Virus record (IMG/VR): IMGVR_UViG_3300047330_000027
Location: 3,862-67,861 of that record
Direction: 5' to 3' (one strand)
From: a virus
DNA: 64,000 nucleotides
In this document: piece after piece, positions 13,238-29,056 of the stretch
Numbering within the stretch: position 1 is the stretch's first letter
Layout of the letters: each line of letters opens with the position of its first letter
Translations under genes and position numbers: made by a program
Notes under the pieces: model-generated
Database searches by the model: none
Told to the model about the DNA's origin: nothing
Seen by the model: the letters and a program-made list of their open reading frames with translations, nothing else

Positions 13238-13264
13238 AAAAAGCCCTCGGATGTCGAGGGCTTC
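13238..13264 (-). terminator. intrinsic terminator ahead of the first late gene
   Basis: minus strand AAGCCCTCG-acatc-CGAGGGCTT followed by TTTGTGTTTC. Confidence 0.75.
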
Positions 13265-13380
13265 GTGGAGCGTTTCTGCCTCTGCTCTGCGTCAGAAGGT
13301 GGGGCCGACCACACCGTAATCCCTGGAAGGAGATGCGGCCGGCCTGGAGGCAACAGGCTATTCACCCGTCGCACGGGTAG
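13238..13380 (-). ncRNA. candidate antisense regulatory sRNA (two seed loops UUGCCUC and UUCCAG)
   Basis: hairpins gcctg-TTGCCTC-caggc and ggccggccgca..tcc-TTCCAG-gga..tgtggtcggcc, whose G-U pairs work only on the minus strand; ends in a terminator; loops complementary to repeated leader motifs; 5' end uncertain. Confidence 0.6.
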
Positions 13381-13505: not shown

Positions 13506-13823
13506 TCAGCTTTTGGTAACAAAAATGACAGTTTGAGCGAAACTGACCGGGCGTTTTCGGGGTCTGCCTGTAGACTTTCTGTTCGCCTGGACGCCGCCCC
13601 TGATCCACGAAAATTTATCTTTGACCTTGCGCAAAGGTTGGGTCGTGAATGGAAGTGGCTTCGAAGTAAGTCCGGTGCAGAATTGCTTAAGAAGCGACGC
13701 TTGCCCGCAGCGCGGACAGGTCTCGGTGAGCGATGGTTCGTTGGCGGTAGCGCTTTCGTACTGACCGCAGGTGAAGCAGATCCTTCGCGCGTAGAAATAC
13801 GCGACCAGCATCGGTGGCGACAT
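13506..13823 (-). CDS. putative Zn-ribbon protein
   Basis: CxxC...CxxC (CFTC, CPRC) and a basic C-terminus. Confidence 0.45.
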   Translation of the reverse strand: MSPPMLVAYFYARRICFTCGQYESATANEPSLTETCPRCGQASLLKQFCTGLTSKPLPFTTQPLRKVKDKFSWIRGGVQANRKSTGRPRKRPVSFAQTVIFVTKS

Positions 13824-15600: not shown

Positions 15601-15858
15601 ATGACAATCGCCAGCACCCCCATCAAGCCGCGGCCGCGTCCGGTCGAGACGTTTACGGAACGCGCGGAAATTCAGCAGGGAAGGGAAGTGGTCGACCGCG
15701 AAAAGCCGGTACTGCTTCAGGCGCGTATCCCGCGTCACGTACTCGCACGCATCGATCAGAACGCTTCGCGGGAAGGAATCTCGCGCAACGCGTTCCTGGT
15801 GTCAGGGATTATGCGCCTGATGGATATTCTTGAGCGCGACCGCAGGGAAGGGAATTGA
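15601..15858 (+). CDS. ParG-like ribbon-helix-helix partition adaptor
   Basis: small gene after parA; LQARIPRHVLARIDQNASREGISRNAFL RHH pattern. Confidence 0.7.
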   Translation: MTIASTPIKPRPRPVETFTERAEIQQGREVVDREKPVLLQARIPRHVLARIDQNASREGISRNAFLVSGIMRLMDILERDRREGN

Positions 15859-15860
15859 CG

Positions 15861-16190
15861 TTACTGCTGCCACGCTTCGCGCCGGTAGCCGTCCTGATCG
15901 GTGCCTTGGTTATCGAGGTTGCTGTCATCCACGTAGCCATGGGCCATGATCGTCATCGTCGCCCTGAGCTGCGTGATCTGTAGTTCCAGGTCCTGAATTT
16001 GCTGTCGGTCGTCTTCGAGCTCCTGCGTCTGGTCGACCACCTCGATGGTGTGGATCGAATTGCTTGAGATTTCACCGAGCGCGAGGACGATGACAAACGG
16101 CAGCGCGATCGCGGCGAATCGGGTGTATATCTGGAGTGCCTTTCTAGCTCTATCCATGCCGTAACTCCTTGATTCTATGTCTGATAACAT
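15861..16190 (-). CDS. membrane-anchored coiled-coil hypothetical protein
   Basis: one TM segment plus a coiled coil. Confidence 0.55.
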   Translation of the reverse strand: MLSDIESRSYGMDRARKALQIYTRFAAIALPFVIVLALGEISSNSIHTIEVVDQTQELEDDRQQIQDLELQITQLRATMTIMAHGYVDDSNLDNQGTDQDGYRREAWQQ

Positions 16191-16208
16191 AGTTTCTGTC
16201 TACTGGAT

Positions 16209-16550
16209 TCAAACGATCAGCGAATGATCCTCGGCAGTGTACAGGTAACCAGGCTCATATTCCGAGAACCGCGAATTGTGGAAGAAGAACCTGTAGCTGT
16301 CCATCGGAACGCCCGGCGGATCAACTGAGAAGACGTGCTTCTCGTAAACGCGCCCGATTTTGTAATCGTGACCGACCAGAATTTCGTTCTCGCGCGCAAC
16401 CCACAGGAACATGGTTTTCTCGGGAACGAAGGGGTTCCAGCGATATATGCGCGGCGGGGCAACGCGAGCCGGATCGATGGCGTCGCTAGACGAGATCCCG
16501 CAGAGATGCGTCCACAGCTTTTTGAACGGCTTGAGAATCGTTTGCCACAT
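16209..16550 (-). CDS. hypothetical protein
   Basis: GAGG SD; co-oriented with the leftward arm. Confidence 0.55.
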   Translation of the reverse strand: MWQTILKPFKKLWTHLCGISSSDAIDPARVAPPRIYRWNPFVPEKTMFLWVARENEILVGHDYKIGRVYEKHVFSVDPPGVPMDSYRFFFHNSRFSEYEPGYLYTAEDHSLIV

Positions 16551-16707
16551 ATGGAGCCTCTTGCTTTTGGGCCGGCGGCGGTTCCGTTGGAAGACCGCAA
16601 GCGCCGCCCCAGTCGCTACAGTCTTTGCAAGGCTGGCAGAGGCCGCCGCTGGTGGCCGGCAGATCGCAGATCACCACGCAGCGGCACTGCTCGGTTACTT
16701 GTTCCAT
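16486..16707 (-). CDS. small Cys-rich hypothetical protein
   Basis: MEQVTEQCRC...CQPCKDC; overlaps the next gene. Confidence 0.35.
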   Translation of the reverse strand: MEQVTEQCRCVVICDLPATSGGLCQPCKDCSDWGGACGLPTEPPPAQKQEAPYVANDSQAVQKAVDASLRDLV

Positions 16708-16964
16708 GGTTTGAAATTGAGCAGACTCACCGGGTCCATGTGGTCTCCCCTTCCAGTTGGAGATTTCACCTGGGGTCGAGCGCACCGACCCCAGGCTTGC
16801 TGCCTCTATAGCGGGTTGTCATCCGGAAGTCTGATACTCGCTGCCGTACGCCTTATGCCTATGGGATGGCTCCCTCGTACTAGCCCCTCGCAGCGTACTT
16901 TGAGGGCGGCAATCCTGACAGTGTTTCTCTCCGGTACAGCGACTTCCCTTTCGCGGTGGAATGT

Positions 16965-17297
16965 CTATTCGAGCCGTTGGATGATGTCGGACAGTCGACC
17001 GTTGAGAGAGTCAGCGTAGCTAGCTAGCTCGGTACTCAAACCCGCAATGTCTCCTGGATGCTGTGCCGTTTCTGGTGATTTAGATGGCTGGATCAGTCCT
17101 TGAGCGAACAGGAGGCTATGAATTCGGTCTAACTGTATGTGTGCCATCTGCACGTAGGCATGAGCACGAGCAAGCTGCTTGCCGACAGATTCAGTCGGAG
17201 CTGACGTTGATACGAAGTTTTGAGCATTGTGGTAGATGGACGGGGCGGGAGTTTGAGGATTTCCCAGATAGCGGGCACCCTCTTCGGGATACGGCAT
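16965..17297 (-). CDS. hypothetical protein
   Basis: GGAGGCAACA SD immediately upstream. Confidence 0.65.
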   Translation of the reverse strand: MPYPEEGARYLGNPQTPAPSIYHNAQNFVSTSAPTESVGKQLARAHAYVQMAHIQLDRIHSLLFAQGLIQPSKSPETAQHPGDIAGLSTELASYADSLNGRLSDIIQRLE

Positions 17298-17430
17298 AGT
17301 GTGTTGCCTCCAGGCGCGTGCGGGGTAGAACTAACGTTGCAGCGAGGCTTCCAGATTCCTCGCGACTGAGACATCATAGACCCTTTTGTAACCGTTTGGG
17401 CAAGTGGAAACTTCACAGTCTCTGAATTAT

Positions 17431-17703
17431 TTACGTGGGCTCGACGATCTCTTTTGCACTTTCGTTTGTTCCATGTGGAACACCCGCGAATCGAGCTTTG
17501 CCGATTGTGAATTCCTTCGGCAACACTTCCGGCTTTGCCACCAGGACCTTGGTTTGCTTCGGCCAGTGCGTTGCCTCATTCTCGCGGTCGCACTGAGCCC
17601 AGCAGGAACAACAGAGCGCATCGTTGGTGCCTGGGCGCACGGGAGCGACGTGGTTATAGCTCGACGTGCACCCGCAGATGCAGTTGCAAACGGAGGTCAA
17701 CAT
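17431..17703 (-). CDS. small Cys-rich hypothetical protein
   Basis: TGATG overlap with the upstream gene; CxCxxxC and CCxC. Confidence 0.5.
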   Translation of the reverse strand: MLTSVCNCICGCTSSYNHVAPVRPGTNDALCCSCWAQCDRENEATHWPKQTKVLVAKPEVLPKEFTIGKARFAGVPHGTNESAKEIVEPT

Positions 17704-18164
17704 CAGTCCCCTGCCCCGAGTTGCTTCGCGTGGCTGCTGACATTCAGCTTGAATTGCTCCCATGCGGTCTGGTTGGTTCCAGGAGCGACTGCGTAAGGCA
17801 TGAACACCTGTGCGGCCTCGACCTGGTTCGATTCCACGATGGCGATCTGCGCGGCAATCCAGTCTTTGACGATGCGCCACGCAATCCACTTCGATTGCTT
17901 CTCGATGCGCGCCATCATGGTCGCCGTCCACCGCCCTCGCTGTTTTTGTTTCTTCATCGCGCGTTCGACGCCGGCCACATTCACCGGCAATGCGAACTCG
18001 ACCGATACATTGTGGATTTGGAGTACGAATGCCACCCCCGATGGCTCCCCATTGGGCGCGTAGTCTGCCCGAATCGAGCGCGCGCCTTTGGACGCGAGCA
18101 GGGCACTGATCTCAGCAACCGTCTGCTGGACCGGGATGGTGGTGGTGTAGTTCTTGATCGGCAT
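17703..18164 (-). CDS. conserved phage hypothetical protein
   Basis: MPIKNYTT...AWRIVKDW...QVFMPY pattern common in phages; AGGA SD. Confidence 0.75.
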   Translation of the reverse strand: MPIKNYTTTIPVQQTVAEISALLASKGARSIRADYAPNGEPSGVAFVLQIHNVSVEFALPVNVAGVERAMKKQKQRGRWTATMMARIEKQSKWIAWRIVKDWIAAQIAIVESNQVEAAQVFMPYAVAPGTNQTAWEQFKLNVSSHAKQLGAGD

Positions 18165-18173
18165 AAGTTCCTT

Positions 18174-18353
18174 TCAGATTTTGTGCGCAGTATGAATCAT
18201 CGGTTGCGCCTTCACGATTCCTGTGCGGCTGGTGCGCGCCGGATGCATGACAACGATCTTCTGACCATGCCGACCTCGGCAGGGCTGGCCAGCAGGCGCG
18301 AGGCAGCGCGGACACTTGCGATCAAGCGCGAACGCGGCTTTCTTCTTGATCAT
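18174..18353 (-). CDS. small phage Zn-finger protein
   Basis: CPRCLAPAGQPC...HPAR; ATGA overlap. Confidence 0.6.
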   Translation of the reverse strand: MIKKKAAFALDRKCPRCLAPAGQPCRGRHGQKIVVMHPARTSRTGIVKAQPMIHTAHKI

Positions 18354-18562
18354 GAGTTCCCTTCTTTCGGCCTATGCCCGATGTGGAAGTTCCCGCACTC
18401 GAAGCATCGGTAGGGCAAGATTTCGGTGCCGGTCGCGAGGGATCGAGCTTCCGCAACCTTCTCGGCCAGCGTGATCGAGTGGTAAGGCTTCTTCCGACCA
18501 CAGCGGCTCATCGATACCTCGGCCAGGGTGCGATGTCCGGTAATGCCGACGGGCCCGATCAT
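18350..18562 (-). CDS. small Zn-finger protein
   Basis: C..KKPY...YRCFECGNFHIGH. Confidence 0.65.
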   Translation of the reverse strand: MIGPVGITGHRTLAEVSMSRCGRKKPYHSITLAEKVAEARSLATGTEILPYRCFECGNFHIGHRPKEGNS

Positions 18563-18744
18563 GAGACGCCCATCTGCGCCTCAAGCACAGCTTTACGTGC
18601 GCGCGCGGCATCGCGTCGCTCTGCGTGAGGTTCTTTCATGGGATTGCCCTTGCCGCGCTTGACACCGCGCTCTAGCGGCCGGCAGGGGTAGCCGCGTCTT
18701 GCTTTGCACTTCGGGCACTGAACGCTCTTCCAGGTAGCGAACAT
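18559..18744 (-). CDS. small phage Zn-finger protein
   Basis: CPKCKARRGYPC...HAERR; GGAGGCAACA SD. Confidence 0.65.
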   Translation of the reverse strand: MFATWKSVQCPKCKARRGYPCRPLERGVKRGKGNPMKEPHAERRDAARARKAVLEAQMGVS

Positions 18745-18765
18745 TGCGTGTTGCCTCCGTCTTGC

Positions 18766-19107
18766 CTACTGCGAATAGTCCTCGTCAGGGGTGTGGAATA
18801 GGATTTTGTTGTCGATGATGGTGGCGACGCCGAGATGCTCACCGCTGCCGCTGTACAGGTCGACCTGTTGGACTCCGGCGCTTTGCTCCATGCTCTTCTT
18901 TTCCGCGAAGTCGCTTTCGCACCACGAGATATAGGCCACGGAGAGACCTATGCCGACGATCGATGCAAACAGCCACGCCAGGCTGAAGTGATGGTCGATT
19001 GCCCAGTTGAGGGTCAGCCAAATGCCGGTGAGCGAAGCGATGAAGAGCAGCAGGTCCAACAGAAAGTGTTTCGCTGTGCGGAGATAGATACTGCGTCTGA
19101 TCACCAT
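18766..19107 (-). CDS. two-TM membrane protein
   Basis: two hydrophobic helices; TAATG overlap. Confidence 0.6.
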   Translation of the reverse strand: MVIRRSIYLRTAKHFLLDLLLFIASLTGIWLTLNWAIDHHFSLAWLFASIVGIGLSVAYISWCESDFAEKKSMEQSAGVQQVDLYSGSGEHLGVATIIDNKILFHTPDEDYSQ

Positions 19108-19400
19108 TAGTTCACCATCACTTTCTTACCGCTGGCTGCGTCATTGAGCAGCGCGGCCGCCTGCTCAGTCTCTTGGAACTTCGCGATATTCTTCACTGCC
19201 TGCTCGATGCGATCGCCGGCGTCACCAGGTCCGTAGATGATCCACTGCATCAGCATCGCGGCTGACTCGTAGAACACGCGCCGGGTCGTCTCATAGCTTT
19301 GGTGGCTAGGGGCGAACGGTAGTTTGGCAGCGAAGTCCTGCCAAGCCATATCGATCGGCTGGATCAGCTTCGCGGCTGCTTCGTCTTCCATGCGGCTCAT
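19107..19400 (-). CDS. hypothetical protein
   Basis: ATGA-coupled; ETTRRVFYESA motif. Confidence 0.65.
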   Translation of the reverse strand: MSRMEDEAAAKLIQPIDMAWQDFAAKLPFAPSHQSYETTRRVFYESAAMLMQWIIYGPGDAGDRIEQAVKNIAKFQETEQAAALLNDAASGKKVMVN

Positions 19401-19774
19401 GGCTTGGGTTCCTGCGGCTCGATGCCGACGTGCCGATTCAATAGCTCGGGCACAGAGGGCGGTTGTGGTCGGCGGGCGCCTTCGGGTATGCCGAGCGACT
19501 GAGTATGGTCCTGCGCCTGGTCGTCATCGCCTTCGCACAGATGCACACTGCCACTATGCAGATGAGCATGCCCGATGCCGCTGATCTCCGCAACCGGCTT
19601 ACCGCGCAGCTTGATGATCAACTGATCATCGTCCTCTCTCTGGGTCGTCTCGTAGGTCCAGTCACTGACCTTTGGCAGATAGTGCAGCGTTGACATCACC
19701 GTCGTTAGCACCAGAGCCATCGTGTGCGGCGTCAGGATCGCTCCGTTGAGGCTGAGCCTGTAGATGGCGCTCAT
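19397..19774 (-). CDS. hypothetical protein
   Basis: ATGA-coupled chain. Confidence 0.6.
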   Translation of the reverse strand: MSAIYRLSLNGAILTPHTMALVLTTVMSTLHYLPKVSDWTYETTQREDDDQLIIKLRGKPVAEISGIGHAHLHSGSVHLCEGDDDQAQDHTQSLGIPEGARRPQPPSVPELLNRHVGIEPQEPKP

Positions 19775-20088
19775 AGCTTCACGGTCCGGGCGATGGATTC
19801 GTCGATCATGCCCTGCTGAAACGCCGCGTATTCGGCCTTGAGCGCAAGCAACACTTCAGCAGCCATGACTGCCATGTTAATGGCCTCCGCCTTATCTTCT
19901 GGCCCATTCAGCACCAAGTATCCCGACACTGCCAGCGCGTAGCCAGCTCCGTTGAAGAAGATCATTCGCAGCCACGCGATAAATTCAGGCGCAAACGCGC
20001 AGCCTTCATCAATCATCTGCGCGCAGCAGATTTGCCACGCATCTTGTATCGAGCGGGGCAGCTCGTGTTCGCTCATCACGAATTCCAT
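19771..20088 (-). CDS. hypothetical protein
   Basis: GGAGGCAAC SD; LRMIFFNGA resembles the motif in the 19107-19400 product. Confidence 0.6.
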   Translation of the reverse strand: MEFVMSEHELPRSIQDAWQICCAQMIDEGCAFAPEFIAWLRMIFFNGAGYALAVSGYLVLNGPEDKAEAINMAVMAAEVLLALKAEYAAFQQGMIDESIARTVKL

Positions 20089-20364
20089 CTAGTTGCCTCC
20101 TGGCCGGGTTGCGGCCATGCTGTCGTTGATTCCCTTGAATCGCCTTGCGAGCTGCTGCGCGCTGACCTTGATCGCCTCTTCAAGCGCATTCATCCCGGCA
20201 TAATCGCGGTTCTGTAGTTGCTGGAACACGAATCCCATGCCCATCAGCAGGCACCGCTCCATGGCGATGCCTGAGAGTGAGCGCCGATTGACGCCGATAA
20301 GCTTGATCGCGTGGTCCGCGAAGGCCTCAAGCGCCTCGGCTGGCGGTGGCACGGCCGGTTTCAT
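20089..20364 (-). CDS. hypothetical protein
   Basis: ATGA-coupled. Confidence 0.6.
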   Translation of the reverse strand: MKPAVPPPAEALEAFADHAIKLIGVNRRSLSGIAMERCLLMGMGFVFQQLQNRDYAGMNALEEAIKVSAQQLARRFKGINDSMAATRPGGN

Positions 20365-20780
20365 TTGTGGCCGGCAGTCGGTTTCGCGATGGTGCGGTCC
20401 TCAGGGTCGCGGCAGTCGTGGCCTTCCCGAAACGGCGTCGAGGTTTCGTTAAGGCCTCTAAATTTGGCCGTACTAACTCCAAGTGCGGTCTTCAAAGTCT
20501 CGCTCGCATACCCTTCCAACACATCGTCTGGCAGGTTTGTCAACATCAGCGATATTGTGCGGCCCTGGTGCTCTGCGCAGCCGATACCGAATGGCATGAG
20601 GTGAATCTCTTCGTTCTCGATCAACGAACAAGACACCCCGATGAATGAATGGACGTCGTACTTTTTGAGGATGGCTACAATCTCTTCGCGCATCTGCTCG
20701 CCGCGCTCGATTGCCTGTTGTGCGGTGGGTAGAATTCCGGCAGAAACGGGCGTTCCTGCGGCTTCGGCTGCATTGCTCAT
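20361..20780 (-). CDS. hypothetical protein
   Basis: CTGGAGGCAAT-ATG start. Confidence 0.65.
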   Translation of the reverse strand: MSNAAEAAGTPVSAGILPTAQQAIERGEQMREEIVAILKKYDVHSFIGVSCSLIENEEIHLMPFGIGCAEHQGRTISLMLTNLPDDVLEGYASETLKTALGVSTAKFRGLNETSTPFREGHDCRDPEDRTIAKPTAGHK

Positions 20781-20900
20781 ATTGCCTCCAGTTTGGTGAT
20801 GTGAGCTTCCAGACTCACAGGTTTTGGTCGAAAACCACGCGCTAGGAGCCTCGTGGTGCAATCCGTAAGACCCCGGTGGGCCTACGGTACCTCCGAATCG

Positions 20901-21605
20901 TCAAACGCTCGCTGCTAGCCCATCTGCGCGCGCTGACTCCCACAATGCTCTCAGCTTTGCACTCATGTCCCGCTGCACATTCTGGGGATCACTGTTGAAC
21001 GGCCAATCCACTCCGCGGTAGAAGAACGGGTGACCGTTTGCTAGCCAGCGTAAACCCTCGCGCAGCTTTCCGTCACCAGCAATTATCAACGCCTGTTCGA
21101 GCGCGGCCGGGATCTCGGGCGCCGGCCAGAGGCCTCCGCCCACCATCGCGCGCTTCTCTTCGTCCCAGGTCGAAGGCTTTGGGCAACCTTTCCAGTCAAT
21201 GCCGTGGCGTTTGAGCGCCGTCAGGAGCCAATCCATCTGCTTGGCCCACTCAACCGTGCGCTGGTATTCGAGTTTTTTCTCGACCGTCTTGAGCAGATCG
21301 AACGGCATCGGCCAATCACGATAGCGGCGCTCGCTTAGGCTGAATGCCTCGACTAGCAATGGGTAAGACAGGTGCTGCAGTGCGTCCGGGTAGACCACTA
21401 GATGCACCGGGACCACCGGTAGCTCGTGCAACGCCCGCAAACGCTGGTAAGCCCGCTGGATGGCCGCCCGGCGCTGGCGCATCGTCGCCTCCGCTGGACT
21501 CAATAGCTCGGCGTATGAGGTCGGGAGATGATGCGGCAGTAACAGCCCCGCTTCGTCGACGTCCCAGGTTCTTTCCGGATTGGACAACTCCACCAGTTCC
21601 CCCAT
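20901..21605 (-). CDS. putative replication accessory/helicase-loader (lambda P position)
   Basis: follows and overlaps the replication gene; AAGGAG SD; function inferred from position only. Confidence 0.5.
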   Translation of the reverse strand: MGELVELSNPERTWDVDEAGLLLPHHLPTSYAELLSPAEATMRQRRAAIQRAYQRLRALHELPVVPVHLVVYPDALQHLSYPLLVEAFSLSERRYRDWPMPFDLLKTVEKKLEYQRTVEWAKQMDWLLTALKRHGIDWKGCPKPSTWDEEKRAMVGGGLWPAPEIPAALEQALIIAGDGKLREGLRWLANGHPFFYRGVDWPFNSDPQNVQRDMSAKLRALWESARADGLAASV

Positions 21606-22665
21606 TGTTGCGCTCCTTCCAGATTTCCGGACTCTCTTTCCAAGTCCCATTTTCGAGCCAGCGATCCAGCCTGGCGATAAATCGATCTTCGCTCGCCGCC
21701 GACACATACACACCCCAGAGATCGAATAGGTTCGTGGCTGCCTGCTGCTGCGTCTGACTCCAGTGCTTCGCTCCCGCCTGGACTGCCTGGAGGAACATCC
21801 GCTCGGTAATCGCGAGTCGACCTGCCTTGCCGATTTTCTCTGCTTGGCCGAACAGATTTTGAAAGACGGAAGTGACGAAAATCCGGCTCGAAGAATCTGG
21901 ATTTACGGGAGTGTTTTGGAGCGGTGTTTTTGAAACAAAATCGTGATCAGAAAAATCGAAATCTTCATGTTCTCTGGGGGAGGATATTTCGGGCTGAATT
22001 TCTGCTGAAGTTTGGTGAGAATTTTCTGTGAGGTTTTCGCTGTCTCGCGCGTGCGTATTGGCTAAACTATCATCCGTAACCCCAGAGTATAAAGCTTTTG
22101 TTTTTAATATATTAAATAGGGTTTTAGTACTACTGTGCGCGCGCGAGGCGCCAGGCGAACCCATGCCCAAACGGGAAGGGGTTGGTGGGGAACCCATGCC
22201 GGATTGGGTAGGGGTTGAATCGGAACCCATGCCCAATCGGGGAGGGGTAAAGCCCTGCCCTTCCTGCTCTTGACCCCTGCCCGTATGGGTAGGGGTTGAC
22301 ACTGTACTACCCCTGCCCATTTCGGTAGGGGTTACATCTTCCTGACCCATGCCCATTTGGGTATGGGTATCAGGTCTAATTCTGGTCACGTCGAGGGCGA
22401 AAAAGTCGCCTTTCGGATGACCAATCTTTCCCACCCGTTTCAAGTACCCTGTGCGGATCAACTGCGCGAGGGCAGCTCTGGTCTGTTTCTGGGCAAAGCC
22501 AATCTCTGCCGCGATCTCTGAAACCCGCGCTTGTATAGCATTTTCCTCGGCATCAAGTCTATGTGCGAAGTAGCCGAGAACCGCCTTCTGATACCCAGGA
22601 TACGGATGGTCTTTCGTTGATTCGATGGTGGTTTTGTACGCCCAATGGCCATGCTTACTGCTCAT
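21316..22665 (-). CDS. replication initiator (lambda O-like), N-terminal winged HTH
   Basis: VSEIAAEIGFAQKQTRAALAQLIRTGYL HTH; internal iteron repeats; C-terminal DRFIARLDRWLENG. Confidence 0.75.
   Translation of the reverse strand: MSSKHGHWAYKTTIESTKDHPYPGYQKAVLGYFAHRLDAEENAIQARVSEIAAEIGFAQKQTRAALAQLIRTGYLKRVGKIGHPKGDFFALDVTRIRPDTHTQMGMGQEDVTPTEMGRGSTVSTPTHTGRGQEQEGQGFTPPRLGMGSDSTPTQSGMGSPPTPSRLGMGSPGASRAHSSTKTLFNILKTKALYSGVTDDSLANTHARDSENLTENSHQTSAEIQPEISSPREHEDFDFSDHDFVSKTPLQNTPVNPDSSSRIFVTSVFQNLFGQAEKIGKAGRLAITERMFLQAVQAGAKHWSQTQQQAATNLFDLWGVYVSAASEDRFIARLDRWLENGTWKESPEIWKERNNGGTGGVVQSGKNLGRRRSGAVTAASSPDLIRRAIESSGGDDAPAPGGHPAGLPAFAGVARATGGPGASSGLPGRTAAPVLPIASRGIQPKRAPLS
22085..22369. repeat. 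putative replication origin: six 26-bp quasi-palindromic iterons plus AT-rich unwinding element
   Basis: ACCC(A/C)TGCC-N6-GG(T/A/G)A(G/T)GGGT units starting at 22158, 22191, 22224, 22272, 22308, 22344; AT-rich tract with palindrome TTTAATATATTAAA at 22103-22116. Confidence 0.8.
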
Positions 22666-23027
22666 AGGACGTGACCCCACACAAATACCTCAAGTGGATC
22701 AGGGTGATGGGAAGGGTCGGGATCGAGACGGCATGGCTGCCGTCGGGTGTTCGCGGCCTTCCAGTTCCGCAAACGTGTTGTCATGGGCGCACAGGCCCGC
22801 GATCGTTCATCAGTGATCCTCAGCTCCTCAGCGGTACTCCGACCTCGATCTCACTGGCAACATGGGCTGAGGGCCATGCGCCAGTCTGTCTGCCTACTCG
22901 CGATCCTCAATCTTGTTTGCGCTGGCCGGCGCTACCGAGGACGGCTTTCAGATCAGAGACTTCACGATACACGCGAGCTGTTTTGCTCGCAAGGTGAGAA
23001 ATGTGGTTCTGTTGAATTGTTGGCATT

Positions 23028-23477
23028 TTACGGGAAATTCGGGTCAGAACAGGCCTCTAGGAGCCTCACCTTGCGATCGCTGGCAGCCCGGACGACCTTA
23101 GATACCACCGAAATCGTCCTGGCCACGCGCGCATCGACTGTAGCCCCAATCTGGGCCTCCAGAGTGTCTACCGTGACCCCCTGAAAGCGGTGCAGGCGGT
23201 TTGCCTTGACCGAGGGATTGCGCCATAAGGTGTCGCGACGCACCACGTAGTAACTGCGGCGCTGCTCGATCTGCGTGATGAGATTGGCCGCGAGCAGAAT
23301 GGGTATCGAGTCCTGAGCGTGCTGGATCCGCATGCGCATGCCGGCCGCGATGTGCTTGGCCGGGGCATACGCAATATCGAGTGAGTTTGCCTGAAGCGCC
23401 ATGTATAACAGTGTGCGGAAAGGTCTCGCGTCGACCGGCGCGCGATCCATGACGAGGTAAACCAGATCGTGCTTCAT
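23028..23477 (-). CDS. HTH DNA-binding protein
   Basis: AKHIAAGMRMRIQHAQDSIPILLAANLI HTH-like; first gene of the leftward arm. Confidence 0.6.
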   Translation of the reverse strand: MKHDLVYLVMDRAPVDARPFRTLLYMALQANSLDIAYAPAKHIAAGMRMRIQHAQDSIPILLAANLITQIEQRRSYYVVRRDTLWRNPSVKANRLHRFQGVTVDTLEAQIGATVDARVARTISVVSKVVRAASDRKVRLLEACSDPNFP

Positions 23478-23635
23478 CTGGTGACGATTGTAATCCGTGA
23501 AAATAATTTGTGTTGCGTTTGTGTCTCATGTGTGTCATTGTTATTTTGTCAGTCTGGAAGCTGACCCGAAAATGGAGGCACTCGAAGCCTAACCCCATTG
23601 CCCCGCCGACAAGGCGGGGCAAGGAGATAAAAAAG
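23478..23635. promoter_or_regulatory. divergent early control region
   Basis: AT-rich; candidate TTGTGT-17-TATTTT promoter (23519-23547); TGTGT repeats; CTGGAAG hairpin 23548-23565; perfect 10-bp hairpin 23598-23622. Confidence 0.55.
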
Positions 23636-23890
23636 ATGACGAAAACAGTACAACTCCCAGAAAGGTTATTCAAGGACGGAGAAATCCCGGTTTGGGTCAC
23701 CTACAGTCTCACCGATGAACACGCGCAAAGTAGCTATGGGCGCCCAGTGCTGGTTGGGCCTGACGGGACGGCATACGGCCCTGATGATCGTTTACCCAAC
23801 GGCGATTGGGCTGCCTTGGCTGTGCAACTGTCCTGTGACGGCATCGACGATCCTGAATATTTCACAGCTGTTAACAGGTTTGTCGGTTAG
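23636..23890 (+). CDS. hypothetical protein
   Basis: AAGGAG SD; LTDEHAQSSYGRPVLV motif. Confidence 0.7.
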   Translation: MTKTVQLPERLFKDGEIPVWVTYSLTDEHAQSSYGRPVLVGPDGTAYGPDDRLPNGDWAALAVQLSCDGIDDPEYFTAVNRFVG

Positions 23891-23892
23891 CC

Positions 23893-24156
23893 ATGAAACA
23901 GCAAACCATCGACGCCGGAAGGGAGATTGTAATGGGAAAGACATTCAAGGTGGGTACGAAGGTCTATTGCTTGCGCGAACACCCCGACGCCATCGGCGAA
24001 GTTATCCGCATCATGCCACGCGGTCTACAAATAGAGTGGACCGCACCACCATCCCCCACGCTGCCATTCGGCTGCATTAACCTAGAGCTTTGGGTTTACG
24101 CAGACCTACATCTTTTACGAGTAATCGGAGAGGAGCGCTTGCCGCATTCATCCTAG
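23893..24156 (+). CDS. hypothetical protein
   Basis: FKVGTKV SH3-like start; co-oriented. Confidence 0.55.
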   Translation: MKQQTIDAGREIVMGKTFKVGTKVYCLREHPDAIGEVIRIMPRGLQIEWTAPPSPTLPFGCINLELWVYADLHLLRVIGEERLPHSS

Positions 24157-24402
24157 ATACACTGGCGAAAAACCGGAACGCTGCCCAATACCTCTACCGC
24201 AATCAGATTGGATCGTACGCTCGCGTTCAGGTTATGGACCTGCTGGACGACATTCGCCGTAATTACCTGAAAGATGACACATACGCTCGCCAGTCGCGGG
24301 CATTGATGCTTCGCTAATCGCCAAGTCGCCGCGCTGCTCCTACAGCGCGCGGATCGTCGTAAGCTCCGCAACAATTTCATCAACCCAACCAGGAGGGAAA
24401 CA

Positions 24403-24543
24403 GTGCAGACGACACTCGAAGCGCTACGCACCATCTGGCGCCACCTTTTCACGCCGCGGTGCTGCTGCGGAAAGTGGGGCGAAGCGCCCTGCTCGCCCGA
24501 ATGCAACGAGGAAATGGCCCACCGTCAGGCTTGGTATGGCTGA
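24403..24543 (+). CDS. small Cys-containing hypothetical protein
   Basis: AGGAGG SD plus GTG; 46 aa. Confidence 0.45.
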   Translation: MQTTLEALRTIWRHLFTPRCCCGKWGEAPCSPECNEEMAHRQAWYG

Positions 24544-24619
24544 TCGTCAGGTCCGGTAGTTCAACCACCAGGCGCGTCTGGAAGCGCGCCTCTTCACCAC
24601 CACAGGAGGCAACAGGCAG

Positions 24620-24898
24620 ATGTACAGATCATTCTCTGGTCGCTTTTATCTTCAGCCGTCCGTCGAGACGCTGCTCAACGACATCCACTCCTTCTCTCAG
24701 CACTCGAAAGAGATGCTGGACTGCTCGCGGCTCCAGGCTAATTGCGGGAACCATTCGCTCGCGCACGCCTACGCAGTCATGGCCGGCAGCTCGGCCAGGT
24801 CCGCTGCGCATCTCGCGGAACAGGTTGAACGAGACTTCCCCGTCACCTATCTCTGTATGACCGTGGCCCACTCTCAACAGAAGACGGTGGCCGCGTGA
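24620..24898 (+). CDS. hypothetical protein
   Basis: GGAGGCAACA SD. Confidence 0.6.
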   Translation: MYRSFSGRFYLQPSVETLLNDIHSFSQHSKEMLDCSRLQANCGNHSLAHAYAVMAGSSARSAAHLAEQVERDFPVTYLCMTVAHSQQKTVAA

Positions 24899-25001
24899 GC
24901 CCGCGCGATCGCGAGGACATCGCGAATGCCGGATGGCTGCTGGTGATCATCGTCGTCACGCTGTTCTCGCTGTTGTTTCTGACCATGCCAGGAGGTCCGA
25001 G

Positions 25002-25142
25002 ATGAAGAACGCTCTCAAGGAATACGCCATCATGCTCGGGATCGGCCTGGTCTACCTGGCCGTGGTCGGTCTTCCTGCGGTGGCTGTGCTGCACGAGTCA
25101 CTGTTCAACCTCGCAAACCACTTTTCCGCATACCACTTCTAG
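25002..25142 (+). CDS. small TM protein
   Basis: AGGAGG SD; one hydrophobic helix. Confidence 0.5.
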   Translation: MKNALKEYAIMLGIGLVYLAVVGLPAVAVLHESLFNLANHFSAYHF

Positions 25143-25150
25143 GAGGCAGC

Positions 25151-25993
25151 ATGACACGTGTACTCGATCTGAAAACGCTTAAACTAAAAGTGGGCAGTCA
25201 CAATCCCTCATCGCATGAAATGTGCGTCATGGAAGCGGTTGCCTTTGTCGCCGGGGAGCCTTGGTCGGATTCGCCGGAATGCGCATCGCCTGTGATCGCA
25301 GCATTCCTGCGGTCTTATAACGACTCGGTGTCGGACGAAGTTCGCCAATCGCTGAAGCAGTACATCCCGCGATTAATTGGCACACGCGGCACTGATGCGC
25401 AGGAAGAAGCACGATCACTGATTGTTGCCGATTGGCTGGTACGCACGCATACCCCGGCATGGCTGCGGTTGGCTGGACTCACTCAGCAAGCAGAAGCGCT
25501 GTCATCTCTGCCGGAAATTACATCGATGGCGCAAATACCGTCGATCAAGCCAGCCATTGAAGCCGCTAGAACAGCCGCAAACGCCGCTGGGGCCGCCGCT
25601 CGGGACGCCGCAAACGCCGCCGCAAGCGCCGCTGGGGACGCCGCTGGGGACGCCGCTGGGGCCGCCGCTGGGGCCGCCGCTTGGGCCGCTTGGGCCGCCG
25701 CTGGGGACGCTGCTCGGGACGCTGCTGGGGCCGCTGCTTGGGACGCTGCTCTGGACGCTGCTCTGGCCGCTGCTCGGGACGCTGCTCTGGCCGCCGCTGG
25801 GGCCGCCGCTGGGGCCGCCGCTGGGGCCGCCGCTGGGGCCGCCGCTGGGGCCGCCGCTGGGGCCGCCGCTCGGGACGCTGCTTGGGACGCTGCTCTGGAC
25901 GCTGCTCGGGCTAAGTTGGATCCTACGGTCGCAGAACTCCAAGCCACGGTTCCAGCGTTGATTGAACGAATGCTCGCAGTAGGTGCTCAATGA
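25151..25993 (+). CDS. phage hypothetical protein with Ala-rich tetrapeptide repeats
   Basis: CVMEAVAFVAGEPWSDSPECASPVI N-domain; (AAxA/AAxD)n repeats. Confidence 0.8.
   Translation: MTRVLDLKTLKLKVGSHNPSSHEMCVMEAVAFVAGEPWSDSPECASPVIAAFLRSYNDSVSDEVRQSLKQYIPRLIGTRGTDAQEEARSLIVADWLVRTHTPAWLRLAGLTQQAEALSSLPEITSMAQIPSIKPAIEAARTAANAAGAAARDAANAAASAAGDAAGDAAGAAAGAAAWAAWAAAGDAARDAAGAAAWDAALDAALAAARDAALAAAGAAAGAAAGAAAGAAAGAAAGAAARDAAWDAALDAARAKLDPTVAELQATVPALIERMLAVGAQ
25583..25908 (+). repeat. 12-bp tandem coding repeat (GCCGCTGGGGCC and variants)
   Basis: directly visible array encoding AAGA/AARD/AAWD. Confidence 0.85.
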
Positions 25994-26039
25994 GCACAAC
26001 TTTTCCGGTCGAGATGCACTGCGGTTCCGGCGGTGACGA

Positions 26040-26225
26040 GTGAACGCGCGCTGGTCGAAGATCCACGCTGATCTTCTAGTGCGCATCCCTGCAACGGGGG
26101 AGATTGCGAGCTATGACGTCTACATCGACTACGACGCGCTGATCGACATGGCGCGTCGTGCGGTCACACGCAAGGGACAGCAGACGCGATATGGCGCGCT
26201 GCTGGTCAGGGTCACACGCAAGTAG
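26040..26225 (+). CDS. hypothetical protein
   Basis: 61-aa co-oriented ORF. Confidence 0.45.
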   Translation: MNARWSKIHADLLVRIPATGEIASYDVYIDYDALIDMARRAVTRKGQQTRYGALLVRVTRK

Positions 26226-26282
26226 CCTGCCCGAATGCTGGCGACTTCGGCAAAAGAAGACGCTAGGCGAAAGGACACACCT

Positions 26283-26477
26283 ATGATACAAACTGAATAC
26301 ATGGCCACTACAGCGAAAAAGAAAGCGCCCACGAAGAAGCAGCCAACCACTGTCTACCACGTCCGCCTTGCCCCCAAGGTGGAAGCGTTGATGGAAAAAG
26401 AAGCCCAGCACCGTCAGAAGGCAAAGGGTACACTGCTGCGAGAGATCATCGAGAACCACTACCTGCTCCCGAATTAG
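26283..26477 (+). CDS. ribbon-helix-helix-like regulator
   Basis: VYHVRLAPKVEALMEKEAQHRQKAKGTLLREIIENHY; AAGGA SD. Confidence 0.6.
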   Translation: MIQTEYMATTAKKKAPTKKQPTTVYHVRLAPKVEALMEKEAQHRQKAKGTLLREIIENHYLLPN

Positions 26478-26538
26478 AGAGCAGCCCTGTAACACACTGC
26501 GCGTCTGGAAGCGTGCAGCCACCTGGAGGCAACACATT

Positions 26539-27117
26539 ATGGCACTCGTACTCGCATTCCCAGCCACTCGGCTGGAGCCTGCTGAATATAAATCTCTCGA
26601 TCCCGTCTATTGCGCTCACTGCCATCAGGAGTGGGACGAAGACGACCACCGCGACGAATTCACCGAAGTCGACGGCGCGATCTACTGCAACGAAACCTGC
26701 CTGCGCATCGCGCGTCTCGAAGCGATCCGCACGGAAGCCAAGCATCGCCTCGCCACCGCGCTCGAAGAGCTGATCGCCCGCGCCTACTCGCTGTCCCGGG
26801 AATATGGAGAGGTCGATGAGGATGAGCACGCGCGACCGATCTCGATTCTTGAAGACGCCGCCGAGCACCTCGACGGATTCATTCACAACTATCCCACCGG
26901 CTATCGCGACGGCGGCATCATGCTCTCGGTCGTCGAGAAAGACAAGATCGAGCGCTCGCTGAAGGAATGCCTGGAGCGCGACTACCGCGAGCTGACCGCC
27001 AAACCGCACCTTGGGTACATGATTGCTCCGCGCATGGCACGTGCCGGCGTTTCTCTGATGATGCTCGACAACCAAACGCGCGAGAGCCAAGGGCAGGAAG
27101 CGAAATGGAGCCTGTGA
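26539..27117 (+). CDS. hypothetical protein with Cys motif
   Basis: GGAGGCAACA SD; CAHC...YCNETC. Confidence 0.7.
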   Translation: MALVLAFPATRLEPAEYKSLDPVYCAHCHQEWDEDDHRDEFTEVDGAIYCNETCLRIARLEAIRTEAKHRLATALEELIARAYSLSREYGEVDEDEHARPISILEDAAEHLDGFIHNYPTGYRDGGIMLSVVEKDKIERSLKECLERDYRELTAKPHLGYMIAPRMARAGVSLMMLDNQTRESQGQEAKWSL

Positions 27118-28019
27118 TGGGACTGACCGAAAACCTCGCACAATACCGGGAAATCAAAGCCGAGGCGCGAGACCGCCGCCAATTCCTCGGCGGAAGCGAC
27201 ATCGCGGCCGTGCTCGGCGTGAGCCGCTGGCAAACGCCGTATGGCCTTTACCACGAGAAGACGGCGCAGGGACCGCCGCAACTCGACCCCGAGAAAGAGA
27301 AGTTCTTCCGCCGGCGCAAGATGCTCGAACCCGTCATCATCGACATCGGGCGCGTGGAATACGGACTCGACATCATCCAGCGCAACCAGGTGCATGCCGA
27401 CCCGCAGTATGACTGGATGCGCGCCGAAATCGACTTCGAGTGGCGCGATGACGACGGCAGTATCCAGAATGCCGACGCCAAGAGCGCCAGCCCGTTCACT
27501 CGCGATAAATGGGGCATCGAGCAAGGCGATGACGAGATCCCGATGGAGTACACGGCGCAGTTTCTCTGGGGCCAGATGGTCACCGGTCGTGAGCTGACGC
27601 TGTGTGTCACCCTCATCGGCACCGACGACGCGCGTATTTATCGCGTGAAGCGGGACGATTCCTTGATCGCACACATGCGCTCCGAAGCCCTGAAGTTCTG
27701 GGAGCGCGTGCAGGAGCGCAGGCCGCCGCCGATCACCACGCTTGCCGATGCGCGGCTGGCTTTCCCCCGCGACGCTGGATCGACAGTTGTCGCGAATCCC
27801 GAGATATGCGAAGCCCTGCAATCGCTGGCGGAGCTGAATCTCGAAATCAAAACTGCCGAGATGAAGGCCGACGAGTTGAAAGCCAAGATCGAGGCACACA
27901 TGGGCACCGCAGCCTACCTGGTCGATGACCAGGGCGACAAGTTAGCAACCTGGAAGACGCAGCAGCGCGCAGCCTACTCGGTGCAAGCCGGCGAATCGCG
28001 CGTATTTAGAACCTACTAA
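27105..28019 (+). CDS. YqaJ-like viral recombinase (lambda-exonuclease fold)
   Basis: RRQFLGGSDIAAVLGVSRWQTPYGLYHEK motif; adjacent to recT. Confidence 0.88.
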   Translation: MEPVMGLTENLAQYREIKAEARDRRQFLGGSDIAAVLGVSRWQTPYGLYHEKTAQGPPQLDPEKEKFFRRRKMLEPVIIDIGRVEYGLDIIQRNQVHADPQYDWMRAEIDFEWRDDDGSIQNADAKSASPFTRDKWGIEQGDDEIPMEYTAQFLWGQMVTGRELTLCVTLIGTDDARIYRVKRDDSLIAHMRSEALKFWERVQERRPPPITTLADARLAFPRDAGSTVVANPEICEALQSLAELNLEIKTAEMKADELKAKIEAHMGTAAYLVDDQGDKLATWKTQQRAAYSVQAGESRVFRTY

Positions 28020-28030
28020 GGAGCCCCACG

Positions 28031-28969
28031 ATGTCCACAGCAGCACTCACGCAAGCAACCGGCGCGCCCCAGGGAGCCATGGAGCGCAAGACGAAACCCT
28101 TAACCTTTCCCGAGATGCTCGAACGCTATAAAGGGCAGATCGCTTTAGCTCTACCGAAACATCTCAACCTCGAACGTATGGCGCGCATTGCGCTTACCGC
28201 GTTCAAACAGAACAAGAAACTGGCCGAATGCACACCCGAGAGCGTCTTCGCTTCGGTCATTCTGGCGTCGCAGCTCGGGTTGGAGCCTGGCGTCCTCGGC
28301 CAGTGCTATCTGATTCCCTACAAGGATCAGTGCACGCTGCAGATCGGCTATCAGGGGCTGCTCGATCTCGCGCAGCGGACCGGCCGCATTCGCTCGATTG
28401 AGGCGCACGTCGTCCATCGCAAGGATGAGTTTCGCTATGAGATCGGAGCCGACCAGCCGCTGTCGCACAAGCCCGAACTGTTCGATGATCCAGGCGAACG
28501 TGTATTGTGCTACGCGATCGCGAAACTCGACAGCGGCACAACCATCGTTGAGGTGATGACGAAACGCGAGATCGAGCGCATTCGCGACCGCTCACAGAAT
28601 GTCATCAACGCGAAGAAGTACGGGAAGGCTACGCCGTGGGACACCGACACCGAAGAGATGTGGCGCAAGACGCTTATCCGGCGCATCTGCAAGTACCTCC
28701 CGAAGTCGATCGAACTCACGATGGCGACAGCGCTTGAAGACACCAGCGACCGCCGCGGTGCGCAGGACCTGTCGCTCGCGAACGCGATCAACATGGACTG
28801 GGCGCCTCCTGCGCTTGGCGACGGCAACGATGAACCAGCAGGCAAAACCATCGAGGCTACTGACAAGGCGAAGGAAGAGACGAAACCGACCGAGACTGAG
28901 ACGAAGGCCGTCGTTGCCGAGACGCAGCAGGTTCAGCAGCAAGAACTGGTCGCGGCAGGCGACTGGTAA
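28031..28969 (+). CDS. recT: RecT-family ssDNA annealing protein
   Basis: LGLEPGVLGQCYLIPY, QIGYQGLLDLA, PWDTDTEEMWRKTLIRRICKYLPKS. Confidence 0.93.
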   Translation: MSTAALTQATGAPQGAMERKTKPLTFPEMLERYKGQIALALPKHLNLERMARIALTAFKQNKKLAECTPESVFASVILASQLGLEPGVLGQCYLIPYKDQCTLQIGYQGLLDLAQRTGRIRSIEAHVVHRKDEFRYEIGADQPLSHKPELFDDPGERVLCYAIAKLDSGTTIVEVMTKREIERIRDRSQNVINAKKYGKATPWDTDTEEMWRKTLIRRICKYLPKSIELTMATALEDTSDRRGAQDLSLANAINMDWAPPALGDGNDEPAGKTIEATDKAKEETKPTETETKAVVAETQQVQQQELVAAGDW

Positions 28970-29056
28970 GACACTCGGCAAAAAGAACCGTGGACTAGTT
29001 CGCAACCTGGAAGGCCGAACTAGTCCAGTGACACACCAAGAAATCGGAGGCAACAA

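What the first reader, a model, noticed from the sequence alone, without database searches (positions are those of the whole stretch)
16744..29027. Dispersed CUGGAAG-loop hairpins with different stems and a fixed loop
Seen, each in the sense of the downstream gene: tctcc-aaCTGGAAGg-ggaga (16744-16763, -); gcgagg-aatCTGGAAG-cctcgc (17342-17363, -); cgct-acCTGGAAG-agcg (18723-18739, -, just after the ATG); tgtgag-tCTGGAAG-ctcaca (20800-20819, -); gtttgcgg-aaCTGGAAGg-ccgcgaac (~22749-22774, -, leader of the replication gene); gtcag-tCTGGAAG-ctgac (23548-23565, +); aggcgcg-tCTGGAAG-cgcgcct (24570-24591, +); ctgcgcg-tCTGGAAG-cgtgcag (26497-26518, +); tggactagttcg-caacCTGGAAGgc-cgaactagtcca (28991-29027, +). 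CTGGAAGGAG also overlaps the SD of the loader gene (21613-21622, -), a 10-nt match to the sRNA. Unrelated stems around a constant loop indicate selection on RNA structure. Inference: these are sRNA docking loops; the alternative is boxB-like or CsrA-like (GGA-loop) protein sites.
Basis: seen in the sequence. Interest (0 to 1): 0.85.

Follow-up and report, generated by a model that had tools for sequence, protein, structure and literature searches.

The report
Tagged hairpins on phage early genes
An uncultured phage from moss samples marks about ten of its early genes with small RNA hairpins that all show the same seven letters at their tip, and the phage also encodes one RNA carrying the exact mirror of that tag, so the hairpins are most likely landing sites through which that RNA shuts the early genes off.

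Summary
All nine hairpins and the 10-nt CTGGAAGGAG site are at the stated coordinates. CTGGAAG occurs 31 times in the window against 7.8±2.6 in shuffles. Six of 32 genome copies sit in perfect stems of 5 bp or more, against a 2.3% background. All 8 intergenic sense copies in the early region are stem-enclosed.

The minus-strand tail at 13240-13505 lies behind a small zinc-ribbon gene and ends in the region's only strong terminator. It carries GUUGCCUCC-N16-CUUCCAG, with the anti-loop at the tip of a long hairpin. The loop tag co-occurs with the extended Shine-Dalgarno tag GGAGGCAAC in the same leaders.

Nothing here shows the tail RNA is made. No RNA run was listed, and five relatives lack the whole early module and both tags. 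The partner therefore rests on one genome.

The scan had already proposed this tail RNA on the same genome (e1-6195857). It also noted similar tag/anti-tag designs on other DNA (e1-6143553, e1-5708417), which I did not check.

Verdict: a new variant of antisense control. Interest 0.6.

The parts
16744..16763 (-). Hairpin tctcc-aaCTGGAAGg-ggaga. Its 3' arm GGAGA is the Shine-Dalgarno of a mini-ORF whose ATG is at 16739.
17342..17363 (-). Hairpin gcgagg-aatCTGGAAG-cctcgc, 36 nt upstream of the SD tag at 17302-17315, in the leader of gene 16965-17297.
18723..18739 (-). Weak 4-bp hairpin cgct-acCTGGAAG-agcg inside codons 2-7 of zinc-finger gene 18559-18744. Here the SD tag (18750-18758) lies upstream of the loop tag.
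20800..20819 (-). Hairpin tgtgag-tCTGGAAG-ctcaca, 16 nt upstream of GGAGGCAAT, in the leader of gene 20361-20780.
21613..21622 (-). CTGGAAGGAG, not stem-enclosed: a 10-nt complement to the tail RNA that serves as Shine-Dalgarno of ORF 20901-21605.
22749..22774 (-). Hairpin gtttgcgg-aaCTGGAAGg-ccgcgaac (7 Watson-Crick pairs plus 1 G-U) in the 347-nt leader of the replication-initiator gene 21316-22680.
23548..23565 (+). Hairpin gtcag-tCTGGAAG-ctgac, first element of the rightward leader, 13 nt before GGAGGCA (23574-23580).
24570..24591 (+). Hairpin aggcgcg-tCTGGAAG-cgcgcct, 20 nt before the SD tag at 24605-24617, in the leader of gene 24620-24898.
26497..26518 (+). Hairpin ctgcgcg-tCTGGAAG-cgtgcag (one G-U), 13 nt before the SD tag at 26525-26533, in the leader of gene 26539-27117.
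28991..29027 (+). 12-bp hairpin with loop caacCTGGAAGgc between the RecT gene and the SMC-like ATPase gene, 32 nt before the SD tag at 29046-29054.
13303..13344 (-). Long hairpin of the tail RNA with CUUCCAG (13323-13329) at its tip: the proposed partner of the loops.
13342..13359 (-). Anti-SD block of the tail RNA (GUUGCCUCC and flanks), complementary over 8-14 nt to the leader SD tags.
13240..13264 (-). Intrinsic terminator that ends the tail RNA: 10-bp stem followed by a T run.
13506..13823 (-). Small zinc-ribbon gene whose 3' untranslated tail carries the two anti-tags. It has a homologue in relative G004.

Best explanation
The hairpins are docking loops for an RNA. Each early or middle cistron that carries one shows CUGGAAG at the tip of its own stem. 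Most also carry, 13-36 nt downstream, the extended Shine-Dalgarno tag GGAGGCAAC.

The minus-strand untranslated tail behind the small zinc-ribbon gene (about 13240-13505) carries both complements in matching antiparallel order: GUUGCCUCC, 16 nt, then CUUCCAG. The anti-loop sits at a hairpin tip, and the tail ends in a strong terminator just before a late-promoter-like word and the virion genes.

The proposed steps are these.
1. The tail RNA first touches a leader by loop-loop pairing. The CUGG start of the loop is a YUNR U-turn word.
2. Its anti-SD block then pairs over 8-14 nt with the ribosome-binding site and blocks translation of that cistron.
3. The effect is a common shut-off of the tagged early genes, or their silencing in a plasmid-prophage state.

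Shown: the hairpins, their enrichment, strand, location and accessibility, the two tags and their co-occurrence, and the complementary tail with its fold and terminator. Inferred: that the tail is transcribed, that it pairs with the leaders, and that pairing represses.
For: Structure and placement.
- All 8 intergenic sense copies of the motif in the early region are stem-enclosed.
- Within-genome covariation on the 6 of 9 hairpins that share a register: 85.7% of cells paired, with 0 of 500 shuffles as high, and 6 of 7 pairs changed on both sides.
- The motif is more accessible at the 10 early sites than at the 20 other window copies (the copy at 13323 left out): 0.61 against 0.36, P=0.003.

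Regulon pattern, from my own gene calls with a -110..+30 window.
- Loop tag: 11 of 44 early/middle genes against 0 of 24 late genes (P=0.005).
- SD tag: 8 of 44 against 0 of 24 (P=0.024).
- Both tags in one leader: 7 both, 4 loop only, 1 SD only, 32 neither (P=6e-5).
- Two of the 11 loop-tag hits are coding copies, not clean hairpins (27950 and 36149).

The partner.
- 13323-13354 holds both tags in antisense orientation with a 16-nt gap. Leader gaps are 13, 13, 16, 20, 32 and 36 nt.
- The central UCCA of the anti-loop has an unpaired probability above 0.95, at the tip of a hairpin in a fold with z=-7.6.
- That terminator is the strongest of the 12 terminator-like hits in 13000-32000: a 10-bp stem directly followed by a T run.
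- Complementarity at the SD tag runs 8-14 nt. The CAAC(A) extension does not, by my recollection, fit the 16S anti-SD, and so needs another reader.
- Duplex energies: -8.8 kcal/mol for the 7-mer and -15.6 to -28.1 for the SD blocks.

Loop form.
- Loops vary from 8 to 13 nt and the 7-mer sits 0-4 nt from the stem. This fits read-out by pairing better than a shape-specific protein site (inference).
- CUGG fits the YUNR motif as defined in passages of PMC6562991.

No known RNA-binding domain in the phage.
- Pfam scans of 40 proteins from 13506-38380 found none.
- No CsrA or ProQ match in the six frames of the record.
Against: - There is no evidence of transcription. No σ70-like promoter was found near the tail.
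- Nothing comparative supports it. Five relatives share the virion and middle modules, but none has a hit to any of my called genes in 13965-28969, a CTGGAAG hairpin family or a repeated leader tag.
- Contigs of four other moss-metagenome runs carry identical pieces, with no variant listed in a hairpin or in the tail (17 further differences were not shown).
- In a blind scan of all loop 7-mers, the count of 6 lies within the maxima of shuffles, 3-7.
- In the predicted tail fold, the first five anti-SD bases and the flanks of the anti-loop are paired.
- The 16744, 22749 and 21613 sites have no SD tag nearby. At 18723 the two tags are in reversed order.
- If the tail is read through from the leftward early operon, it sits on the same molecule as some of its targets.
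- The ORFan early proteins could hide an RNA-binding protein.
Confidence: 0.55

Rival explanations
1. The loops are sites for a sequence-specific RNA-binding protein of the phage or the host. This could be a translational repressor or activator, an antiterminator, or an endoribonuclease that marks early mRNAs. On this reading the antisense copy in the tail is unrelated, or acts only on the SD tag.
For: The constant 7-nt loop on varied stems, next to ribosome-binding sites, resembles translational operators (recalled: MS2/PP7 coat, T4 RegA; T4 RegB cuts early mRNAs at GGAG). Nearly all early proteins are ORFans: 24 of the 40 proteins scanned had no Pfam family at all.
Against: Loop size (8-13 nt) and the position of the motif in the loop vary, which shape-specific hairpin binders rarely tolerate (recalled). 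No known RNA-binding domain was found. It leaves unexplained why both tags occur once in antisense order and spacing inside a terminator-ended tail.
Confidence: 0.2
2. The loops are CsrA/RsmA-type sites. On this reading a host CsrA dimer bridges the GGA in the hairpin loop and the GGA of the Shine-Dalgarno tag and represses translation.
For: GGA is central in every loop, and a second GGA lies in the SD 13-36 nt downstream. That is within the spacing I recall for dual-site CsrA binding.
Against: Seven loop positions are invariant, not only GGA. The core here is CUGGA, not A(N)GGA (core recalled). The CAAC extension of the SD tag is not explained. No CsrA gene is in the phage, and the host is unknown.
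Confidence: 0.07
3. The hairpins act only in cis, with no trans partner. They would be intercistronic modules that stabilise or process the polycistronic early mRNA or set translation efficiency.
For: At three rightward sites the hairpin starts 19-26 nt after the upstream stop and ends 20-29 nt before the start codon, a regular layout. At 16744 the stem sequesters a Shine-Dalgarno. At 20800 the minimum-energy fold offers an alternative pairing of the 3' arm with the start region.
Against: A purely structural role needs no invariant 7-nt loop and no complementary copy elsewhere.
Confidence: 0.1
4. The hairpins act at the DNA level. On this reading they form on the lagging-strand template on both sides of an origin near 23000, for example as primase or single-strand initiation signals containing CTG.
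For: The motif switches strand at the divergent region next to the replication-initiator gene. This is also the orientation expected of a lagging-strand template if the origin lies there (inference). The phage has a DnaB-like helicase.
Against: Sites are confined to 16.7-29 kb and lie 19-70 nt before start codons at seven sites, with one inside a gene's first codons and one 193 nt upstream. They are coupled to an SD tag and mirrored in an RNA-like tail. No origin has been mapped.
Confidence: 0.03

Closest known systems
c4 antisense RNA of phages P1/P7 (immI operon; Rfam family C4)
   Same: A short phage RNA with two separate short blocks complementary to its target, one covering a ribosome-binding site (mechanism recalled). 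I saw only the title of Citron & Schuster 1992, in the reference list of PMC8546580.
   Different: No match to any Rfam family, C4 included, at gathering score in the window or at E up to 5 in 13000-30000. Here about ten dispersed targets in two divergent operons are tagged, not one operon. One block is shown in hairpin loops. The RNA is a 3' tail of a protein gene beside the late genes.
Kissing-loop antisense pairs with a YUNR U-turn (hok/Sok, RNAII/RNAIII of pIP501, CopA/CopT)
   Same: The target loop begins with YUNR (CUGG) and the complementary bases sit at the tip of a hairpin in the partner. YUNR and its role are taken from passages of PMC6562991.
   Different: Those pairs are encoded opposite each other and are fully complementary with one target. 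Here the partner is encoded 3-16 kb away, pairs over only 7-10 plus 8-14 nt, and has many targets.
OxyS-fhlA two-site kissing complex (recalled, not read here)
   Same: Two short, separated pairings, one at the ribosome-binding site, that act together.
   Different: OxyS is a host stress sRNA with unrelated targets. There is no shared address tag written into many leaders of one genome.
CsrA/RsmA binding sites
   Same: GGA in a hairpin loop plus GGA in the Shine-Dalgarno at a bridging distance.
   Different: Seven invariant loop letters, a CUGGA core, and an exact antisense copy in the genome. No phage CsrA.
Lambda-type boxB/N nut sites
   Same: A hairpin with a constant loop and a free stem sequence in early transcripts.
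   Different: Four or five hairpins per operon in front of individual cistrons, instead of one per operon near the promoter. Loops are 8-13 nt instead of the GNRA-like pentaloop (recalled). No N-like protein was found.

Membership tests
P1/P7 c4 antisense RNA (Rfam C4) | Sequence and structure match to the Rfam covariance model | tested here: not met
   No Rfam family reached gathering score in the window. None relevant at E up to 5 in 13000-30000.
P1/P7 c4 antisense RNA (Rfam C4) | Two short blocks complementary to the target, one over the ribosome-binding site (feature recalled) | tested here: met
   CUUCCAG and GUUGCCUCC lie 16 nt apart in the tail. The targets carry CTGGAAG and GGAGGCAAC.
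P1/P7 c4 antisense RNA (Rfam C4) | Encoded upstream in the same operon as its single target and cut out of the transcript (feature recalled) | not testable with these tools
   The layout differs: a 3' tail and many targets. Processing needs RNA data, and no RNA run was listed.
Kissing-loop antisense systems with U-turn | YUNR word at the 5' side of the recognition loop | tested here: met
   CUGG occurs in all nine loops. The definition is in PMC6562991.
Kissing-loop antisense systems with U-turn | Complementary bases exposed in a loop of the partner RNA | tested here: met
   The UCCA of CUUCCAG has unpaired probability 0.95-1.0 at a hairpin tip. This is a prediction only.
Kissing-loop antisense systems with U-turn | Partner transcribed from the opposite strand of the target (full complementarity) | tested here: not met
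   The partner lies 3-16 kb away. Exact matches are 7-10 nt at the loop and 8-14 nt at the SD.
CsrA/RsmA binding site | GGA in the loop of a short hairpin | tested here: met
CsrA/RsmA binding site | A(N)GGA core (feature recalled) | tested here: not met
   The core is CUGGA in all copies.
CsrA/RsmA binding site | A CsrA protein available | tested here: inconclusive
   None in the phage record. The host is unknown.
Lambda boxB/N nut site | One site per early operon close to the promoter, with a pentaloop of GNRA-like fold (feature recalled) | tested here: not met
   Five hairpins leftward and four rightward, spread over 12 kb, with loops of 8-13 nt.
Lambda boxB/N nut site | An N-like arginine-rich antiterminator gene | tested here: inconclusive
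   No Pfam family of that kind in the 40 proteins scanned. Most are ORFans.

The most novel reading that the evidence does not exclude
The phage runs an RNA-only address code. A two-part tag, made of a U-turn kissing loop plus an extended Shine-Dalgarno, has been written in front of about ten early and middle cistrons of different origin. These include the SMC-like ATPase gene, whose homologues in four relatives lack the tag. One RNA reads all the tags. That RNA is the 3' tail of a small zinc-ribbon gene sitting directly before the late promoter-like word, so making that transcript would at once silence the early set. This would be a global early-to-late, or immunity, switch made of one RNA and many docking hairpins.
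Probability: 0.35. Interest if true: 0.75.

Novelty: new variant of a known kind. Interest (0 to 1): 0.6.

Why it matters
Known phage antisense RNAs, as far as I recall (c4, CI, sar, OOP), each act on one operon or gene. A single phage RNA that recognises many of its own cistrons through a displayed loop tag plus an anti-SD block would show how a virus can build a translational regulon by writing a short address into unrelated leaders. It would also give a compact, portable design for multiplex RNA control.

It is directly testable with reporter fusions and compensatory loop mutations.

The scan's notes on other phages (e1-6143553, e1-5708417, unchecked) hint that tag/anti-tag designs may be widespread in uncultured phages.

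Tried and rejected
Relatives by sequence.
- Megablast of 16000-30000 against cultured phages gave no match.
- The replication protein has no relative in viral contigs or genome contigs, nor among 5.8 billion proteins, where it hit itself only.
- The 192-aa protein has no relative either, nor does the 109-aa protein.
A script over all 119 loci found none with a hairpin family.
- The RecT relative L120 has the words only inside genes.
- Relatives found through the SMC-like and virion proteins are G001, G003, G004, G005 and fragment G002. They lack the early module and the tags.

The one early protein with relatives.
- ORF 20901-21605 has two 45%-identical homologues on 65-68-kb contigs (P0006, P0007).
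- Scans of metagenome contigs, viral contigs and genome contigs found nothing, nor did tblastn against phages and plasmids.

Sequencing runs.
- No RNA holder was listed.
- Contigs of four moss-metagenome runs were laid. All the pieces listed lie on the stretch with 0-1 differences and give no variant in a hairpin or in the tail, so there is no strain-level covariation.

Methods that did not work.
- duplexfold of 110-nt leaders against the tail did not separate tagged from untagged genes and was dropped.
- No covariance model was built. MAFFT anchors on the motif, and 3 of the 9 hairpins fall out of register. I counted pairs on the 6 that share one register.
- The σ70 scan gave no promoter for the tail: 5 sites found against 6.3 expected in the region.

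Ideas considered and left.
- A sigma-54 or operator reading was rejected because the arms vary while the asymmetric centre is constant.
- Mobile-repeat origin was rejected because the stems differ.
- A tRNA-anticodon-loop mimicry idea was left as an untested recollection. The loop would read as CU-GGA-AG and the tail tip would resemble a tRNA-Gly(UCC) loop.

Full report
Setting. The window is bases 3862-67861 of a 67,861-base IMG/VR virus record rated 99% complete. Pieces identical to it, with 0-1 differences, lie in contigs of four further moss-metagenome runs from four studies. By my own codon-usage gene calls, 90.4% of the record is coding.

The region has two divergent early/middle operons.
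- The leftward operon runs from about 22,700 down to about 13,240. It includes a replication initiator (phrog_270, E=4e-7).
- The rightward operon runs from about 23,550 to about 39,200. It includes YqaJ, RecT, an SMC-like ATPase and a DnaB-like helicase.
- Virion genes on the minus strand flank both operons.

The observation. CTGGAAG occurs 31 times in the window against 7.80±2.61 in dinucleotide shuffles, and 0 of 100 shuffles reach 31. It occurs 32 times in the whole record, against 16 for the pattern read backwards. Watson-Crick stems run from 4 to 12 bp, and two of the 4-bp stems extend to 7 and 8 bp with one G-U.

Tests against chance:
- Six of 32 copies lie in perfect stems of 5 bp or more, against 2.27% of background positions (P=7e-5). 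Ten of 32 lie in stems of 4 bp or more, against 7.7% (P=1e-4).
- The same scan on 40 letter permutations of the motif gave 0-2 exact enclosed copies. The one permutation with many intergenic hits is the motif shifted by one base.
- Ten of 32 copies are intergenic, where 9.6% of the genome is (P=6e-4). Eight of these are in the early region, and all eight are sense to the local genes (P=0.004 by strand alone) and stem-enclosed.
- Of the 13 coding copies in gene sense, 12 sit in the frame nnC-TGG-AAG, an ordinary Trp-Lys word.
- A blind count of k-mers over 40 leaders ranks GGAGGCA (8 leaders) and CTGGAAG (7) on top.

One result weakens this. In a blind scan of all loop 7-mers, CTGGAAG is first with 6, but the best 7-mer of 30 shuffles reaches 3-7. 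Enclosure alone would therefore not be convincing.

Structure. On the 6 of 9 hairpins that share one register:
- 85.7% of cells pair, against 54.7% in shuffles (0 of 500 reach it).
- Six of 7 pairs change on both sides.
- Slid controls pair 21-50%.

The three hairpins left out (17342, 18723, 28991) have other spacer lengths and could not be put in register by MAFFT. In partition-function folds of ±60 nt, the motif is more open at the 10 early sites (mean 0.61) than at the 20 other window copies, the copy at 13323 left out (0.36; P=0.003).

A second tag. GGAGGCAAC occurs exactly at nine places.
- Seven are Shine-Dalgarno sites of early or middle genes.
- The gap from loop tag to SD tag is 13, 13, 16, 20, 32 and 36 nt in six leaders. 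At 18723 the order is reversed.
- The loop tag is in 11 of 44 early/middle start regions and 0 of 24 late ones. The SD tag is in 8 of 44 and 0 of 24.
- The two tags share leaders: 7 both, 4 loop only, 1 SD only, 32 neither (P=6e-5).
- Two of the 11 loop-tag hits are coding copies (27950 and 36149).

The partner. The only place with both tags in antisense orientation is 13323-13354. On the minus strand this reads GUUGCCUCC, 16 nt, then CUUCCAG. It lies in the 265-nt stretch between the stop of a small zinc-ribbon gene and a terminator.
- The gene is 13506-13823. It is real, being 30% identical to a G004 protein at E=1e-13.
- The terminator has a 10-bp stem and a T run at 13264-13240. It is the strongest terminator-like hit in 13000-32000.
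- The stretch folds far better than shuffles (z=-7.6), and CUUCCAG sits at the tip of a long hairpin. Its central UCCA is open with probability above 0.95, while most of the anti-SD is predicted paired.
- Exact complementarity to the leaders is 7-10 nt at the loop and 8-14 nt at the SD.
- The loop begins with CUGG, a YUNR word. Passages of PMC6562991 describe YUNR as a U-turn scaffold for fast RNA-RNA contact, first shown for the hok target loop.
- Just below the terminator lies AAATGGTATGAGT. It resembles the word repeated before late genes in the relatives, so late transcription probably starts afresh there.

Mechanism proposed. Loop-loop contact comes first, then pairing over the ribosome-binding site, then a translational block of every tagged cistron. 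Only the sequence features are shown. Transcription of the tail, the pairing and its effect are all inferred.

Rivals. A protein reader remains possible, because nearly all early proteins are ORFans.
- Pfam found no RNA-binding domain in the 40 proteins scanned.
- The record has no CsrA or ProQ match.
- A CsrA-type reading fits the GGA and the spacing. It does not fit the seven invariant letters, the CUGGA core or the CAAC extension.
- A boxB/N reading fails on the number of sites and on loop form.
- A cis-only structural role does not explain an invariant loop or the mirror copy.
- A DNA-level reading, with hairpins on the lagging-strand template around an origin at the divergent region, fits the strand switch. 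It does not fit the coupling to start codons and SD tags.

Comparison. No Rfam family matches. Five relatives share the virion module, the SMC-like ATPase and middle genes at 19-81% amino-acid identity. They are G001, G003, G004, partial G005 and fragment G002.
- None has a hit to any of my called genes in 13965-28969.
- None has a CTGGAAG hairpin family or a repeated leader tag.
- The leaders of their SMC-like genes have no such hairpin.

So the tags were written into leaders of genes of different ancestry within this one genome. This fits a regulon built around one reader, but it leaves the case without independent lineages.

The scan's earlier follow-up on this genome (e1-6195857) reached the same tail-RNA reading. 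I re-derived its core facts here. Its notes on other phages with tag/anti-tag designs were not checked.

Verdict. The hairpin family is real and unusual. RNA docking is the best-supported function (0.55). It is a new variant of phage antisense control, and it needs RNA data or the two unfetched relatives for proof.

Noticed in passing
window 5937-5951 (+), inside minus-strand virion gene 5841-11867: A 15-nt exact copy of the tail locus 13345-13359 (TGGAGGCAACAGGCT). The late mRNA of the 2008-aa gene therefore also carries the anti-SD block AGCCUGUUGCCUCCA. My rough estimate puts a chance match at a few per cent.
   Followed up: no
window 13198-13210 (-); G001, G003, G004, G005 late regions: A late-promoter-like word AAATGGTA(G/T)... 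is repeated before late genes in the relatives, for example 5 copies of AAAAATGGTAGGGTACGC in G001. It occurs once in this phage, just below the tail terminator.
   Followed up: partly
window 21316-21605 (-): The replication-initiator ORF overlaps the next ORF by 290 nt, and its last ~95 residues are low-complexity. The long form of the next ORF (234 aa) is backed by two homologues of 236 and 243 aa, while the source called only 135 aa. This may be a frameshift or a true overlap.
   Followed up: partly
window 25580-25860 (+), gene 25151-25993: A run of short in-frame repeats (TGGGGCCG and CTGCTCTG words at 12-nt steps). Between metagenome runs it shows 3-nt deletions and much higher contig depth, which suggests a variable repeat protein or cross-matching to other organisms.
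   Followed up: no
window 21629-21647 (-): A second hairpin, ggact-tggaaagag-agtcc, lies just upstream of the unenclosed CTGGAAGGAG site. Its loop, UGGAAAG, differs from the tag by one extra A.
   Followed up: no
window 17520-17540 (-): A possible degenerate member, ggcaa-agCCGGAAGtg-ttgcc, with one mismatch to the tag. It lies in a stretch my gene caller left non-coding.
   Followed up: no
window 13506-13823 (-) and L135:15221-15592: A small CxxC...CxxC zinc-ribbon protein with a GRPRK tail is conserved in relative G004 near the first late promoter-like word. It could be a late-gene activator of the Ogr/Delta style, a resemblance I recall and did not test.
   Followed up: partly
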